Below the pieces are notes generated by a model. The model was not told where the DNA came from and did no database searches. It was given only the letters and a program-made list of their open reading frames with translations. The position numbers were made by a program, and so were the translations under genes. From Escherichia phage APCEc01, in the sequence record NC_029091.1: a stretch of 64,000 nucleotides of DNA; one strand, 5' to 3'. Shown here one piece after another: positions 11,554 to 52,235 of this stretch; the first letter of the stretch is position 1, and every line of letters starts with the position of its first letter.

Positions 11554-11570
11554 GGGCTTCGGCCCTTTTT
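11554..11570 (+). terminator. Intrinsic terminator
   Basis: GGGC-TTCG-GCCC followed by T5. Confidence 0.75.
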
Positions 11571-13476: not shown

Positions 13477-14577
13477 ATGAAAGTTATGTTTATCCCATCT
13501 CGTGCAGTCCCATTTAACCCAGAACGTGTACAAGGTGGTCTTGAAGCAGTACATTTAAATGTGTTGAAATATCTTGTGTCCATCGGTGCCGATATTGATT
13601 ATATTGGTTTTGATAATGACACATTTGGTGATTGGAAAGTTAATCATCATCCTGTTGGTCATCTGACTAAATTCAGTCTAGGTATGAGTTATACTATGGC
13701 TCGTAAGATTGTTGAACTAGCCGGCATCCATGAATACGATTTTGTTGTTACTATGGAACCGACTAAACTAACCGTTCAGGCAATTAAAGACGCAGGTCTC
13801 TCTAAAGTTCATAAGAATTTTATGGCAACACCATTTGAACCGGTATCTCGTGGCATTGTTCAAATTTGGGACCAGACTATTCAAATTCATAAGAATGGTG
13901 GTAAGAGTTATGCTCCTACTAAAGCCTTCCGTGAATTTGAACGTAAATATTGTTATATGACTTCAGGTCTGACTGACAAAATTGATTATGATTATTGGCG
14001 AGCAAATCCTTTGTTTGAAGCCGAAGATTATCCGGTTATTTGTTTGACTGAAAAGCCAGAAGTTCTTCCGGCGACGGATCTGATTATTAGTGCACAACGT
14101 TATGACACTAAAATGCGTCGTACTGATGTTGCTCTTGAAGCGATTAAAGCACTAGGCGAAAATGGTGCAGGATACTGTCCAAGCAAATGGGCGCCACCGG
14201 CTAAATATCCTGTTATTATTGATGCTCCACACAGTGAAATTATGGAACGTCTTAAAACAGCTAAAGCACTTATTAATACGTGTCCTGACACAGGTACGGT
14301 AGAGAATAGTTCTATTGAAGCCATCTCTAAAGGTGTCCCTGTAATCCAGTTAGTTTTTAAGGATTATCCTCATGCGACATTTGAATACGACCCAGATACT
14401 GTGCGTGTAGAAATTGATTCCTCTACTCCTAAGAAAGAAGTAGTTGCGCTTTACACAAAAGCTGTATTAGAATTCACTGACACATACGAAGCTCGAGTTA
14501 AACGTGCTGAAGCAGTATGGAAGAAGTATAACCGAGATGCAGTTGTTGCGATGTGGGATAAAATCTTCACAGCGTAA
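13477..14577 (+). CDS. GT-B fold glycosyltransferase (candidate hmC sugar transferase)
   Basis: 366 aa. N-terminal MKVMFIPSRAVPFNPERVQGGLEAVHLNVLKYL and C-terminal GTVENSSIEAISKGVPVIQ resemble GT4/GT1 signatures. Sits between 39 and rIIA.1. Confidence 0.7.
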   Translation: MKVMFIPSRAVPFNPERVQGGLEAVHLNVLKYLVSIGADIDYIGFDNDTFGDWKVNHHPVGHLTKFSLGMSYTMARKIVELAGIHEYDFVVTMEPTKLTVQAIKDAGLSKVHKNFMATPFEPVSRGIVQIWDQTIQIHKNGGKSYAPTKAFREFERKYCYMTSGLTDKIDYDYWRANPLFEAEDYPVICLTEKPEVLPATDLIISAQRYDTKMRRTDVALEAIKALGENGAGYCPSKWAPPAKYPVIIDAPHSEIMERLKTAKALINTCPDTGTVENSSIEAISKGVPVIQLVFKDYPHATFEYDPDTVRVEIDSSTPKKEVVALYTKAVLEFTDTYEARVKRAEAVWKKYNRDAVVAMWDKIFTA

Positions 14578-39279: not shown

Positions 39280-40965
<1,686 letters not shown>

Positions 40966-49948: not shown

Positions 49949-49978
49949 GTTTACAACATGGTGGAGTTGTGATACTAT
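49949..49978 (+). promoter_or_regulatory. T4-type early promoter within a stem-loop
   Basis: GTTTAC, 18-nt spacer, TGa + TACTAT. GGTGGAGTT/AACTCTACC imperfect inverted repeat. Confidence 0.7.
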
Positions 49979-50006: not shown

Positions 50007-50243
50007 ATGCTAAGTGAAAACCCAATTACAGTACACGAATTTCAGATTAAAGTAAAAGAATTTGCTCAAGCACTCATCAATAAAGTGTCTGAACGTTTCC
50101 AAGATGCAACATTACGAGTTATTCAAGAATCTCCACGTTCTTTTCTCATAATCGTTAATCCTAAAGATGGTGACCAAATTACTAATCTTAAATTAGGCAG
50201 TGATGGTCTTGTTGAAGCAACTCGAGTATATGGAACACTATAA
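50007..50243 (+). CDS. Hypothetical protein (78 aa)
   Basis: GAGGAA SD. Confidence 0.65.
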   Translation: MLSENPITVHEFQIKVKEFAQALINKVSERFQDATLRVIQESPRSFLIIVNPKDGDQITNLKLGSDGLVEATRVYGTL

Positions 50244-50355
50244 TGAGAGCTATCTCATTACTATCGAGAATGGTCATAAATCTGAGCACTACCAACTTAG
50301 CCTGTCTAATCCGGTTAAAGGTATTGTTGAATCAGAATCTGTTTATATCTCCTAA
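50230..50355 (+). CDS. Possible small protein (41 aa), below the ORF-track cutoff
   Basis: MEHYNESYLITIENGHKSEHYQLSLSNPVKGIVESESVYIS. Fills the gap before the DAHP synthase gene and overlaps the upstream ORF by 14 nt. Confidence 0.4.
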   Translation: MEHYNESYLITIENGHKSEHYQLSLSNPVKGIVESESVYIS

Positions 50356-50363
50356 GGATTGTT

Positions 50364-51356
50364 ATGTTACCTGTCGTCGGAAAACTTATTTCTCCAAAAG
50401 AACTGGCTGAGATTATTCCTTTGTCGGAAGCTTACGCGTCACAAGTGGTTTCTCATCGCGAACAAGTTAATTCGATTATGAACGGTGAAGACCCACGCAA
50501 ACTTATTGTTGTAGGTCCTTGTTCAATTCATGACCCTATTGCTGCTGTTGAATACGGCAAACGTCTGGCTGAACTTCAAACTCGTCTTCCTAATGTTCTG
50601 TTAGTGATGCGCGTTTATTTTGAAAAGCCTCGAACTACCGTAGGTTGGAAAGGTCTTGTAAATGATCCATATCTTGACGGAAGTTTTGATATGAACCACG
50701 GTCTTATAGTTGCACGAACATTGTGTCGTAAACTTCTACGTATGGGACTTCCATTAGCAACTGAAGTATTAGACCCATTCACGATTAAGTATCTTTCTGG
50801 TATTTTCTCATGGGTTGCTATTGGCGCCCGTACGACTGAAAGTCAGACACATCGTGAAATTGCTTCAGGTCTACCGATGTGCGTAGGCTTCAAGAACGCA
50901 ACCAATGGTTCTATTAAAGTAGCTACAGACGCGATGTATAGTGCCGCCTGGCCTCATCGGTATATGGGTATGGACGTCGATGGTACTGTAGGCATTGTTG
51001 AAGCTGAAGGTAATCAGAATACGCATATCGTATTGCGTGGTGGGACCAACGGTCCGAACTATCATTCTTCTGATATTCAAGAAGCTTCTAACAAAGCAAG
51101 GGCAGTAGGTCTGAATCATTATGTAATGGTTGACTGTAGCCATGCAAACGCTGATGGGCATTATAGCAATCAAATTGGTATTGGTAAAAATTTAGCAGCT
51201 AATGATTTGGTCAAAGGAATTATGATAGAATCGTTCCTACATGAAGGAAATCAAAAAATTTCTGATAATATGTCCTATGGCGTTTCCGTTACCGATGCGT
51301 GCATCAGTTGGGAACAAACTAAAGAGCTGTTAACTTATATTAATAAGGTTCAATAA
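50364..51356 (+). CDS. 3-deoxy-D-arabino-heptulosonate-7-phosphate (DAHP) synthase, class I-alpha (AroG/F/H-like)
   Basis: 330 aa. GPCSIHD, RVYFEKPRTTVGWKGL.NDP, IGARTTESQ.HRE.ASGL, GFKN, CSHAN, IESFLHEGNQ and VTDAC blocks are collinear with remembered E. coli AroG. Confidence 0.9.
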   Translation: MLPVVGKLISPKELAEIIPLSEAYASQVVSHREQVNSIMNGEDPRKLIVVGPCSIHDPIAAVEYGKRLAELQTRLPNVLLVMRVYFEKPRTTVGWKGLVNDPYLDGSFDMNHGLIVARTLCRKLLRMGLPLATEVLDPFTIKYLSGIFSWVAIGARTTESQTHREIASGLPMCVGFKNATNGSIKVATDAMYSAAWPHRYMGMDVDGTVGIVEAEGNQNTHIVLRGGTNGPNYHSSDIQEASNKARAVGLNHYVMVDCSHANADGHYSNQIGIGKNLAANDLVKGIMIESFLHEGNQKISDNMSYGVSVTDACISWEQTKELLTYINKVQ

Positions 51357-51937
51357 TGAAAGCTAGCACATACCTTCAGATTGCATATCTGATTTCTCAA
51401 GAATCAAAATGTTGTTCATGGAAAGTTGGCGCCGTCATTGAAAAAGATGGACGCATTATTTCTACAGGTTATAATGGCTCTCCTTCAGGTGGTACAAACT
51501 GTTGCGAACATGCATCCGAAAACGGTTGGTTGAAGAATAAACCAAGCCCGGTCATCGTTGCTGGTCATAAAGAAGGCACTACAGCATTTGGACGGGCAGA
51601 TAATTTTGTTTTGGCTAAAGAACATCGGGCCGCTCATAGTGCATGGTCTGCTAATAACGAAATCCATGCTGAATTGAATGCCATTTTGTTTGCTGCTCGC
51701 AAAGGTAATTCTATTGAAGGTGCTACGTTGTATACGACACTTTCTCCGTGTCCTGATTGCACTAAAGCTATTACACAGTCAGGTATTAAAAAGGTTGTAT
51801 ATGCAGAATTATATGACCGATCTCCTGAAAATTGGGCAGACATTCTTAAACAAGCTGGTATTGAAGTAATTCAGTACTCTCGTAATAATCTTCGTTCTCT
51901 GAATTGGGAACAAATTCGAAACTTTTGTGGTGAATAA
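51356..51937 (+). CDS. cd: dCMP deaminase
   Basis: 193 aa (same as T4). HAELNAI and PCPDCTKAI zinc motifs. Confidence 0.94.
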   Translation: MKASTYLQIAYLISQESKCCSWKVGAVIEKDGRIISTGYNGSPSGGTNCCEHASENGWLKNKPSPVIVAGHKEGTTAFGRADNFVLAKEHRAAHSAWSANNEIHAELNAILFAARKGNSIEGATLYTTLSPCPDCTKAITQSGIKKVVYAELYDRSPENWADILKQAGIEVIQYSRNNLRSLNWEQIRNFCGE

Positions 51938-51938
51938 T

Positions 51939-52235
51939 ATGATTTTAACTGAACAAGAAACTATGGTTCTTCGTGAACGTATTAAAACTATTCTGTCTGT
52001 AGGCGTTCATTGTGTTGTATTTGAAAAGGCTAACGGTGATGTTCGTACGATGTTTGCCTCCCGCGATGAACTTGAAGTCAAATATGAAAATAACAATCCG
52101 GCAACAGAAGTTCGTTATGAACCTCGTGAATCAGTTCGAGCATTCGATACCAAGTTAGGTCAGTGGCGTTCTTTCCGCCTTGATAAAGTAATTTCGGTTG
52201 ATGGTACTCCGGTAGAACGTTTGCTTCTTATGTAA
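51939..52235 (+). CDS. Hypothetical protein (98 aa), cd.1 position
   Basis: ATG directly after the cd stop. Confidence 0.6.
   Translation: MILTEQETMVLRERIKTILSVGVHCVVFEKANGDVRTMFASRDELEVKYENNNPATEVRYEPRESVRAFDTKLGQWRSFRLDKVISVDGTPVERLLLM

What the first reader, a model, noticed from the sequence alone, without database searches (positions are those of the whole stretch)
50364..51356. Apparently intact AroG-type DAHP synthase embedded in the phage nucleotide-metabolism cluster
The 330-aa ORF immediately upstream of cd (1-nt overlap, same operon) carries every block I recall from E. coli AroG. These include the metal ligands (Cys in GPCSIHD, His in CSHAN, Glu in HEGNQ, Asp in VTDAC) and the KPRTT PEP/phosphate loop. 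It starts roughly 10 to 20 residues short of AroG at the N-terminus, a segment that contributes to Phe feedback inhibition in AroG. T4 itself has no such gene at this locus.
I see two non-exclusive ideas.
- It could push shikimate/chorismate flux toward pABA and folate. Its neighbours frd, td and cd, and the hmC pathway, all consume folate one-carbon units.
- It could belong to an unknown sugar pathway. DAHPS and KDO8P synthase share a fold, and KDO8PS uses arabinose-5-P. That might connect to the candidate arabinosyl transferase at 13477.
Both ideas are speculative.
Basis: partly seen in the sequence, partly recalled or inferred. Interest (0 to 1): 0.75.

Follow-up and report, generated by a model that had tools for sequence, protein, structure and literature searches.

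The report
Feedback-blind DAHP synthase in Mosigvirus phage
This is an intact phage copy of the first enzyme of the aromatic (shikimate) pathway, already annotated in about 190 related phage genomes, with its catalytic site kept and its feedback-inhibitor site rebuilt; it occurs only in T4-like phages that also carry a U32-family gene (a family of oxygen-independent hydroxylases that need prephenate), so it may supply prephenate for making the phage's 5-hydroxycytosine DNA without oxygen.

Summary
The ORF at 50364-51356 is real and is a type I-alpha DAHP synthase. All four metal ligands, the KPRT loop and the PEP/E4P-binding residues are intact. It is not new as a gene: PHROGs and GenBank already name it in 211 phage records, and one preprint lists it as an auxiliary gene of unknown function.

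New here:
- The phage enzymes form one clade (100/100 bootstrap; at most 56% identical to any bacterial homolog). All 32 members lack the N-terminal Asp6/Asp7 segment and carry Q151K/R, S180P and F209Y. All but one (31 of 32) also carry P150I. These are known feedback-resistance positions in AroG. None of the 98 bacterial sequences compared (95 nearest homologs plus E. coli AroF/G/H) has them.
This lineage makes 5-hydroxycytosine with a flavin/O2 enzyme, not folate-dependent hmC. The 13477 glycosyltransferase does not co-occur with the gene.
- The gene does track a U32-family gene next to the 5-hydroxy-dCMP synthase (190 of 211 records; the other 21 are non-T4-like records or fragments). Outside Mosigvirus, a chorismate mutase lies between or beside those two genes.
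- E. coli U32 enzymes RlhA and TrhP hydroxylate pyrimidine C5 without O2 and need prephenate.

Best reading (inferred, untested): a deregulated DAHP synthase that feeds prephenate to an anaerobic cytosine-hydroxylation route.

The parts
50364..51356 (+). DAHP synthase gene (type I-alpha, phage clade), 330 aa. The catalytic residues are intact and the allosteric site is remodelled.
50354..50358 (+). Shine-Dalgarno sequence AAGGA, 5 nt upstream of the ATG
   Evidence: read directly from the sequence
51356..51937 (+). dCMP deaminase gene (cd). Its ATG overlaps the DAHPS stop codon by 1 nt, so the two are probably co-transcribed and translationally coupled.
   Evidence: The same pseT-cd.x-DAHPS-cd order is found in 7 genera.
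50007..50243 (+). cd.2-like gene (DUF7320). In RB69 and moha this gene abuts cd directly, so the DAHPS gene occupies the cd.2/cd junction.
49950..49978 (+). Candidate sigma-70-like promoter (TTTACA-17-TACTAT with an upstream TG) ahead of cd.2. This is weak evidence only.
   Evidence: the number of such sites does not exceed the number in shuffled sequence

Best explanation
The gene encodes a catalytically competent DAHP synthase (PEP + erythrose-4-phosphate -> DAHP). Its binding site for the aromatic-amino-acid feedback inhibitor has been dismantled, so it should run regardless of Phe, Tyr or Trp levels.

It is probably expressed from the early/middle pseT-cd operon. It would take over the one flux-controlling step of the host shikimate pathway. 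The host AroB-AroC enzymes, which are not feedback-controlled (my own knowledge), would carry the carbon on to chorismate. A chorismate mutase would then make prephenate. In most sister genera that enzyme is phage-encoded. In this Mosigvirus it would presumably be host PheA or TyrA.

I propose that the prephenate is consumed, one molecule per cytosine hydroxylated, by the phage U32-family protein (the RB69 gp50 homolog). Its gene lies next to the 5-hydroxy-dCMP synthase gene. This would give an O2-independent route to 5-hydroxycytosine nucleotides. It would parallel the known flavin/O2-dependent route, as TrhP parallels TrhO and UbiUV parallels UbiIHF in E. coli.

Shown here: family membership, an intact active site, a remodelled allosteric site, and the gene co-occurrence and neighbourhoods.
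Inferred, not tested: enzyme activity, feedback insensitivity, the U32 substrate, the use of prephenate, and the anaerobic role.
For: 1. Active site. The metal ligands C/H/E/D, the KPRT loop, and R92, R165, K186 and R234 are invariant in all 32 phage-clade sequences.

2. Allosteric site.
- All 32 phage sequences have 8-12 residues before AroG Pro19, against 16-53 in the 98 bacterial sequences. They therefore lack AroG Asp6/Asp7.
- They carry P150I (31 of 32), Q151K/R, S180P and F209Y. None of the 98 bacterial sequences does.
- AroG P150L, S180F, F209A/S and D6/D7 replacements are feedback-resistant. Q151 and S180 contact the inhibitor (PMC9529685; PMC6520568).

3. Age and selection. The clade is monophyletic (100/100 NJ bootstrap). 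Identity is 53-100% within the clade and at most 56% to any bacterial sequence. The position between cd.2 and cd is conserved in 7 genera and in uncultured T4-like contigs.

4. Co-occurrence in 50,697 phage records.
- DAHPS is in 211 records, U32 in 220, and both in 190.
- Of the 21 DAHPS-only records, 17 are non-T4-like (below 60% identity). At least 3 of the other 4 are sub-genomic fragments.
- The roughly 158 records that carry the arabinose-activation gene but no U32 gene lack DAHPS.

5. A second shikimate-pathway gene.
- A CM_2 chorismate mutase (44.6 bits against a cutoff of 27; it keeps EcCM R11, R28, K39, E52, S84 and Q88; hhalign to the PheA CM domain E = 1.9e-5) was found in 54 records. 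These span the non-Mosigvirus U32-positive groups sampled.
- In 5 of the 6 loci I read in full it lies between the U32 gene and the 5-hydroxy-dCMP synthase gene, with overlapping reading frames in several. In Thanatos-1 it follows U32 but is followed by a recombination gene.

6. Precedent.
- RlhA (U32) makes 5-hydroxycytidine in 23S rRNA and needs prephenate and Fe-S clusters (PMC5727448).
- TrhP (U32) makes ho5U independently of O2 and needs prephenate, alongside the O2-dependent TrhO (PMC6599085).
- The phage 5-hydroxy-dCMP synthase takes its oxygen atom from O2 (PMC13326640).

7. The phage U32 protein.
- It passes the PF01136 cutoff and has a U32-like TIM-barrel fold (best match 5d88).
- It has an invariant Glu and 8 invariant Cys.
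- Its 48-58%-identical relatives sit beside dCMP deaminase, thymidylate kinase, dNK and NT5C genes on large (60-466 kb) metagenomic contigs, at least two of which look phage-like.

8. Demand. About 64,000 cytosines per genome, times a burst of 100-200 (my assumption), gives about 10^7 hydroxyl donors per infected cell. That is a bulk need of a kind that would justify capturing the committed step.
Against: - No biochemistry exists for any step.
- DAHPS lies about 60 kb from the U32 cluster. Its pattern of divergence matches that of U32. The co-occurrence may therefore reflect one ancestral gain plus vertical inheritance, which is effectively n = 1.
- The gene is dispensable in the laboratory. 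RB69, moha, JK36 and some mar005P1 records carry U32 but no DAHPS. So do Tegunavirus, Thanatos and Serratia phage 92A1.
- This Mosigvirus has no recognisable chorismate mutase. The 79-aa gp49 at that position does not match (hhalign probability 0.06%).
- Dhakavirus phages infect E. coli and carry the arabinose-activation gene, but have neither U32 nor DAHPS.
- The second Cys of the U32 motif (TrhP C177, RlhA C176) is Gly in the phage protein.
- The authors of PMC13326640 suggested 'sugar or heterocycle reductase' for gp50.
- Six host enzymes would have to keep pace with the phage enzyme.
Confidence: 0.45

Rival explanations
1. A generic auxiliary metabolic gene. A deregulated DAHPS simply raises the supply of Phe, Tyr and Trp for phage protein synthesis once host transcription is shut off.
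For: The active site is intact and the enzyme is predicted to be feedback-insensitive. PHROGs files it under 'moron, auxiliary metabolic gene'. Olsen et al. list it as an auxiliary gene of unknown function. It is dispensable in RB69 and moha.
Against: This does not explain why the gene is confined to U32-positive T4-like phages and absent from the much larger groups of T4-like phages on the same hosts. It also does not explain why a lone chorismate mutase, with no dehydratase or dehydrogenase, sits beside the U32 and 5-hydroxy-dCMP synthase genes in sister genera. Aromatic amino acids are usually plentiful in the gut.
Confidence: 0.2
2. It supplies another chorismate-derived product: pABA/folate for td and frd, quinones, or enterobactin for iron.
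For: frd and td lie in the same 64-kb window (39521-40965). Chorismate is the common precursor of all these products (PMC5727448).
Against: Cytosine modification in this lineage uses a flavin, not folate, so folate demand is lower than in T4, which lacks the gene. Folate and quinones are recycled cofactors needed in small amounts. The accompanying chorismate mutase diverts chorismate away from pABA, quinones and enterobactin.
Confidence: 0.1
3. It has a role in a sugar pathway. The enzyme would condense PEP with arabinose-5-phosphate or another sugar phosphate, or would drain E4P to re-route the pentose-phosphate pathway for arabinosylation.
For: The phage makes arabinose-5-P from ribulose-5-P for DNA arabinosylation (PMC13326640). 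DAHPS and KDO8PS share a fold (my own knowledge).
Against: The protein scores as an aroFGH equivalog with the E4P-type KPRT motif, and no KDO8PS family matched. The published UDP-arabinose route is complete without it. The 13477 transferase and the arabinose-activation gene occur widely without DAHPS, in Acinetobacter phages and Dhakavirus. DAHPS also occurs without a detectable 13477 transferase homolog.
Confidence: 0.05
4. A decaying or functionless passenger gene.
For: It is absent from some close relatives.
Against: It is full-length in every one of the 211 records (all cover at least 80% of the query). All catalytic residues are invariant across sequences as little as 53% identical, and the position is conserved in 7 genera.
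Confidence: 0.03

Closest known systems
E. coli AroF / AroG / AroH (type I-alpha DAHP synthases; PDB 6agm, 1kfl)
   Same: Same fold and family, 47-55% identity. Identical metal ligands, KPRT loop and PEP/E4P-binding residues. The beta6a/6b insertion is retained.
   Different: It lacks the first ~8 residues, including Asp6/Asp7. It has Ile-Lys in place of Pro150-Gln151, Pro in place of Ser180 and Tyr in place of Phe209. It falls below the AroG and AroH NCBIfam cutoffs (no AroF-specific model was among the matches). It belongs to a separate clade found here only in phage genomes and phage-like contigs.
Engineered or selected feedback-resistant AroG/AroF (P150L, S180F, F209A, D6/D7 variants) used to force shikimate flux
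   Same: The substitutions fall at the same positions, and the predicted consequence is the same: DAHP synthesis uncoupled from aromatic amino acids.
   Different: This is a natural variant, carries several changes at once, and is strictly conserved across the phage genera. It has not been assayed.
Paired O2-dependent and prephenate/U32-dependent hydroxylation in E. coli (TrhO/TrhP for ho5U; RlhA for ho5C; UbiIHF/UbiUVT for ubiquinone)
   Same: A flavin/O2 enzyme and a U32-family protein are encoded together for a C5 pyrimidine hydroxylation, and shikimate-pathway genes are attached.
   Different: The substrate would be a deoxynucleotide or DNA, and the demand would be stoichiometric and very large. 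The phage U32 belongs to a distinct subfamily with a different Cys pattern and an extra C-terminal Cys4 cluster. The function is unproven.
T4-type aerobic and anaerobic enzyme pairs (NrdAB versus NrdDG) and cyanophage auxiliary metabolic genes
   Same: The phage carries its own copy of a host flux-controlling enzyme to secure DNA precursors under either oxygen regime (my own knowledge).
   Different: The pathway targeted here, shikimate, has no previously recognised link to phage DNA synthesis.

Membership tests
Type I-alpha DAHP synthase (AroF/G/H family) | Sequence-family match above curated cutoffs | tested here: met
   PF00793 252 bits (cutoff 25.5). TIGR00034 aroFGH equivalog 427 bits (cutoff 173). 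PRK12755 454 bits (cutoff 343).
Type I-alpha DAHP synthase (AroF/G/H family) | Metal ligands Cys61/His268/Glu302/Asp326, the KPRT E4P loop, and PEP-binding Arg92/Arg165/Lys186/Arg234 | tested here: met
   All are present in the window protein and invariant in all 32 phage-clade sequences.
Type I-alpha DAHP synthase (AroF/G/H family) | Allosteric site for an aromatic amino acid (N-terminal Asp6/Asp7, Pro150, Gln151, Ser180, Phe209) | tested here: not met
   The N-terminus is deleted, and the protein has P150I, Q151K, S180P and F209Y. None of the 98 bacterial sequences compared shares these changes.
Type I-alpha DAHP synthase (AroF/G/H family) | DAHP synthase activity with PEP + E4P | not testable with these tools
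   Needs an enzyme assay or complementation of an aroFGH triple mutant.
Specific isozymes AroG (Phe-sensitive) and AroH (Trp-sensitive) | NCBIfam isozyme-specific model cutoff | tested here: not met
   AroG model NF006723 (equivalog) 363 bits against a cutoff of 568. AroH model NF009396 (subfamily) 386 bits against a cutoff of 463.
KDO8P synthase (KdsA) | Sequence-family match | tested here: not met
   No KdsA model among the NCBIfam hits at E <= 0.01, and no KDO8PS chain among the PDB hits at E <= 1e-3.
U32-family prephenate-dependent hydroxylases (RlhA/TrhP/UbiU/UbiV): proposed partner, encoded outside the window | Peptidase_U32 domain and fold | tested here: met
   PF01136 42 bits (cutoff 22.4). 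AlphaFold model pLDDT 90; best PDB match is the U32 protein 5d88.
U32-family prephenate-dependent hydroxylases (RlhA/TrhP/UbiU/UbiV): proposed partner, encoded outside the window | Motif Glu plus two Cys (TrhP E162/C170/C177), essential in RlhA and TrhP | tested here: inconclusive
   The Glu and the first Cys align. The second Cys position is Gly. Other Cys residues invariant within the subfamily (C205, C211, C235 and a C-terminal CX4CX3CX2C) could substitute.
U32-family prephenate-dependent hydroxylases (RlhA/TrhP/UbiU/UbiV): proposed partner, encoded outside the window | Prephenate-dependent, O2-independent hydroxylation | not testable with these tools
   Needs anaerobic infection experiments, genetics, or in vitro reconstitution.
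AroQ chorismate mutase: proposed partner in sister genera | CM_2 domain with catalytic Arg11/Arg28/Lys39/Glu52/Ser84/Gln88 | tested here: met
   Serratia phage LC53 protein: PF01817 44.6 bits (cutoff 27). The six residues are kept in the six phage CMs aligned. hhalign to the PheA CM domain gives E = 1.9e-5.
AroQ chorismate mutase: the Mosigvirus gp49 at the same position | Any detectable similarity to CM | tested here: not met
   No Pfam hit at E <= 10, BLASTP E = 17, hhalign probability 0.06%.

The most novel reading that the evidence does not exclude
T4-like phages of facultative anaerobes may carry a distributed three-gene module: a feedback-blind DAHP synthase, a minimal chorismate mutase and a U32 Fe-S hydroxylase. 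The module would turn the host shikimate pathway into a bulk supplier of prephenate. Prephenate would serve as the hydroxyl donor for O2-independent synthesis of 5-hydroxy-deoxycytidine nucleotides. The phage could then build its arabinosyl-5-hydroxycytosine genome in the anoxic gut, where its flavin/O2-dependent 5-hydroxy-dCMP synthase cannot work. If so, this would be the first link between the shikimate pathway and viral DNA hypermodification, and the first U32 hydroxylase acting on DNA precursors.
Probability: 0.4. Interest if true: 0.85.

Novelty: new variant of a known kind. Interest (0 to 1): 0.62.

Why it matters
As a gene, this is ordinary: it is annotated in about 200 phage records. 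Its purpose, however, has been listed as unknown.

If the proposed link holds:
- It explains how gut phages with 5-hydroxycytosine DNA make the base without oxygen.
- It assigns a function to RB69 gp50 (the U32 protein) and to the small chorismate mutase next to it.
- It adds the shikimate pathway to the list of host pathways that phages take over for DNA hypermodification.
- It provides a natural, multiply substituted feedback-resistant DAHPS scaffold of interest for aromatic-compound engineering.
- It suggests that the efficacy of Mosigvirus therapy phages in anoxic niches may depend on these accessory genes.
- RB69, the laboratory model for this DNA modification, lacks the DAHPS gene. Work on RB69 alone would therefore miss it.

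Tried and rejected
- Promoter, terminator and MotA-box scans around the gene did not define its transcription unit. Sigma-70-like sites were no more frequent than in shuffled sequence, and no MotA-box-like site lies directly upstream.
- I tested whether Mosigvirus gp49 (79 aa, at the position of the chorismate mutase) is a diverged CM. There is no support.
- I looked for independent DAHPS acquisitions next to U32 or CM genes.
  - Aeromonas phage HJ05 has an unrelated 387-aa DAHPS in a different context.
  - A fecal 'Bacteriophage sp.' contig was not informative.
  - Of 80 IMG/VR DAHPS loci, many from giant-virus MAGs, none had a U32 gene within 10 kb. Four had a CM-like hit within 10 kb: two look bacterial (88-89% identical to the E. 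coli PheA CM domain), one follows DAHPS directly on a 10.7-kb contig, and one lies about 8 kb away.
- An IMG/VR scan with the phage CM profile returned only the known T4-like genera.
- A sequence search of the PDB with the U32 protein found nothing. Foldseek found only the uncharacterised U32 structure 5d88 plus generic TIM barrels.
- The two most relevant papers could not be read: He et al. 2026, Nat Chem Biol, and Mahler et al. 2025, Cell Host Microbe. I cannot exclude that they already discuss these genes.
- Full-text searches found no paper that links phage DAHPS, chorismate mutase, U32 or prephenate to 5-hydroxycytosine DNA.
- I first considered that the 5-hydroxy-dCMP synthase itself might need prephenate. 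I rejected this because it is a flavin/O2 enzyme.
Full report
**Observation.** The ORF at 50364-51356 (+) is present as described. It encodes 330 aa from an ATG start, with AAGGA 5 nt upstream. Its TAA stop overlaps the ATG of the dCMP deaminase gene cd by one base. It matches Pfam DAHP_synth_1 over nearly the whole profile (E = 5e-75). It passes the NCBIfam aroFGH equivalog model (427 bits, cutoff 173). It aligns end to end with solved E. coli AroF (E = 1.9e-104) and AroG (E = 1.2e-90). In an alignment with AroG, AroF, AroH and seven phage homologs, the four metal ligands, the KPRT loop and the PEP/E4P-binding arginines and lysines are all invariant. No KDO8P-synthase family matched. The N-terminal shortening is 8 residues before the conserved Pro19, not 10-20.

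**Source and prior knowledge.** The window is a Mosigvirus (RB69-like T4 relative). It is 98.7% identical in DNA to Escherichia phage 55 over a 2.7-kb stretch around the gene. tblastn finds the protein in 211 phage records. Most of them annotate it as phospho-2-dehydro-3-deoxyheptonate aldolase or as a DAHP synthase. PHROGs has a family for it in the 'auxiliary metabolic gene' category. A genome paper notes the domain. A preprint lists it among putative auxiliary genes of unknown function in Mosigvirus. The gene itself is therefore already known; its role is not.

**The phage clade.**
- Among 120 database homologs plus references, the 32 phage-type sequences form one clade (100/100 NJ bootstrap).
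- Identity is 53-100% within the clade and at most 56% to any of the 98 bacterial sequences, which come from several phyla. This points to an old phage lineage rather than a recent host capture.
- The gene sits between cd.2 and cd, downstream of pseT, in Mosig-, Kanagawa-, Kagamiyama-, Marfa-, Winkler-, Gualtar- and Bragavirus. One uncultured T4-like contig shows the same pseT-DAHPS-cd order, and two further divergent contigs also look T4-like.
- It is accessory. RB69 itself and phage moha have cd.2 abutting cd with no DAHPS.

**Allosteric site.**
- All 32 phage sequences have only 8-12 residues before AroG Pro19, against 16-53 in the bacterial sequences. They therefore lack AroG Asp6/Asp7.
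- They carry Ile at Pro150 (31 of 32), Lys or Arg at Gln151, Pro at Ser180 and Tyr at Phe209. None of the 98 bacterial sequences does.
- In AroG, P150L, S180F, F209A/S and D6/D7 replacements give feedback resistance. Gln151 and Ser180 contact the bound inhibitor (PMC9529685; PMC6520568).
- The inference is a catalytically normal, feedback-insensitive enzyme. This has not been assayed.

RB69-type phages do not make hmC. A thymidylate-synthase homolog (RB69 gp48) makes 5-hydroxy-dCMP using a flavin, with the oxygen atom coming from O2. The base is then arabinosylated (PMC13326640). The homolog in phage 55 is 237/238 identical to RB69 gp48. Folate demand for cytosine modification is therefore nil, so the idea loses its basis.

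A tblastn search with the 13477 glycosyltransferase and DAHPS joined into one query shows where each occurs. The transferase is found in Mosigvirus and in Acinetobacter phages. No match was found in the DAHPS-positive Kanagawa-, Winkler-, Marfa- or Bragavirus genomes listed. Acinetobacter phages that carry the transferase lack DAHPS. The arabinose-activation gene (the gp52:53 homolog) is present in 374 records, but only 216 of them have a U32 gene next to it. The remainder lack DAHPS. They include 57 Acinetobacter-phage records and about 40 Dhakavirus-like records.

**What does co-occur.**
[quoted passage not shown] It lies about 280 bp upstream of the 5-hydroxy-dCMP synthase gene.
- DAHPS is in 211 records, U32 in 220, and their union is 241, so 190 records carry both.
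- Of the 21 DAHPS-only records, 17 are non-T4-like (below 60% identity). At least 3 of the other 4 are sub-genomic contigs.
- In Serratia phage LC53 the gene between U32 and the synthase is a CM_2 chorismate mutase, and the three reading frames overlap.
- Its homologs are present in 54 records covering the non-Mosigvirus U32-positive groups sampled. In 5 of the 6 loci read in full the CM lies between U32 and the synthase. In Shewanella phage Thanatos-1 it follows U32 and is followed by a recombination gene.
- These CMs keep the EcCM catalytic residues and match the PheA CM domain by profile comparison.
- Mosigvirus has an unrelated 79-aa ORF at that position.

**Precedent.** E. coli RlhA, a U32 protein, forms 5-hydroxycytidine in 23S rRNA and requires prephenate and Fe-S clusters (PMC5727448). 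TrhP, another U32 protein, forms ho5U independently of O2 and requires prephenate; it works in parallel with the O2-dependent TrhO (PMC6599085). The phages thus combine four things: an O2-dependent C5 hydroxylase, a member of the family that carries out the same chemistry without O2 using prephenate, the enzyme that makes prephenate, and the committed-step enzyme of the pathway that leads to it.

**The phage U32 protein.** It models confidently (pLDDT 90), and its best structural match is the U32 structure 5d88. It has an invariant motif Glu and eight invariant Cys residues, although the second canonical motif Cys is Gly. Relatives at 48-58% identity lie next to dCMP deaminase, thymidylate kinase, dNK and NT5C genes on large metagenomic contigs, including one of 466 kb; at least two of these contigs look phage-like. 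That is an independent hint that this subfamily acts on deoxynucleotides.

**Proposed mechanism (inferred).**
1. The feedback-blind DAHPS is probably made early from the pseT-cd operon. It drives PEP and E4P into the host shikimate pathway whatever the aromatic-amino-acid levels.
2. Host AroB-AroC make chorismate.
3. A chorismate mutase makes prephenate. It is phage-encoded in most genera and presumably host PheA or TyrA here.
4. The U32 protein uses prephenate to hydroxylate cytosine nucleotides when O2 is absent.

The demand would be large: about 64,000 cytosines per genome, times a burst of 100-200 (my assumption). That could explain why the phage captures the flux-controlling enzyme.

**Caveats.**
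- The co-occurrence may reflect a single ancestral gain.
- Several U32-positive phages lack DAHPS.
- Dhakavirus infects E. coli with neither gene.
- This Mosigvirus has no recognisable chorismate mutase.
- Nothing has been tested biochemically.
- Two key papers could not be read. Searches of the held literature found no statement of this link.

**Verdict.** The gene is real, intact and already annotated. It belongs to a phage-specific variant of type I-alpha DAHPS that is predicted to be deregulated. The best-supported hypothesis, at moderate confidence, is prephenate supply for an O2-independent route to 5-hydroxycytosine.

Noticed in passing
AY303349.1 (RB69) 133742-134502 = L020:443-1203; MN850590.1 (moha) = L016:2407-3224: The laboratory strain RB69, on which the 5-hydroxycytosine work was done, and phage moha lack the DAHPS gene: cd.2 abuts cd. 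Both still carry the U32 gene. The joined-query searches also show no DAHPS match in JK36 or in some mar005P1 records.
   Followed up: partly
L030:7447-9086 (JGI 466-kb contig), L032:7504-9083, L031:8001-10888: Relatives of the phage U32 protein (48-58% identical) lie directly after a dCMP deaminase gene on large contigs that look phage-like and carry PolIII-alpha. On a third contig they lie beside NT5C, dNK and nucleoside deoxyribosyltransferase genes. This suggests a wider U32 subfamily linked to deoxynucleotide metabolism.
   Followed up: partly
L001:17868-18107 (phage 55 gp49; same position as RB69ORF049c): In Mosigvirus the slot held by chorismate mutase in sister genera contains a 79-aa ORF (phrog_8601, unknown function). 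It has no detectable similarity to CM. It may be a replacement or an extreme divergence.
   Followed up: yes
window 13477-14577: The glycosyltransferase is the RB69 gp3 homolog, proposed as arabinosyltransferase 2. It is 100% identical to that of phage p000v. Homologs at about 42% identity occur in two copies in Acinetobacter T4-like phages. No match was found in the other enterobacterial phage genera sampled that carry the 5hoC-type cluster.
   Followed up: partly
window, whole: MotA-box-like middle-promoter patterns (TGCTTNA-N12-TANNNT) occur 7 times against 1.1 expected from shuffles. Examples are at 11570, 36079, 48960 and 52238 on the + strand.
   Followed up: no
window 51927-52235: The ORF that overlaps the end of cd has a WYL_2 (Sm-like SH3) domain (E = 3.7e-9). 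The same family appears in the same position on an uncultured T4-like contig (L021:9998-10297).
   Followed up: no
L017:6257-7901 (Aeromonas phage HJ05): An unrelated 79-kb phage carries a different, longer DAHPS (387 aa, 38% identical). It is followed by an Acb2/Tad1-like anti-defence gene and lies near methyltransferase and Asn-synthase-like genes. This looks like an independent acquisition of unknown purpose.
   Followed up: partly
A6 alignment (E. coli ThyA versus RB69 gp48 and the phage 55 homolog): MAFFT misplaces a 2-residue gap. After shifting it, the published 5-hydroxy-dCMP synthase signature (ThyA D169N, N177D) and the conserved R166/S167 line up. The window's own td gene (40105-40965) is an ordinary thymidylate synthase, 50% identical to ThyA.
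   Followed up: partly
L094:4-1030 (IMG/VR 10.7-kb contig): A partial DAHPS (56% identical to AroG) is followed directly by a small CM-like ORF that is 36% identical to the phage-type CM. The origin of the contig, phage or bacterial, is unknown.
   Followed up: no
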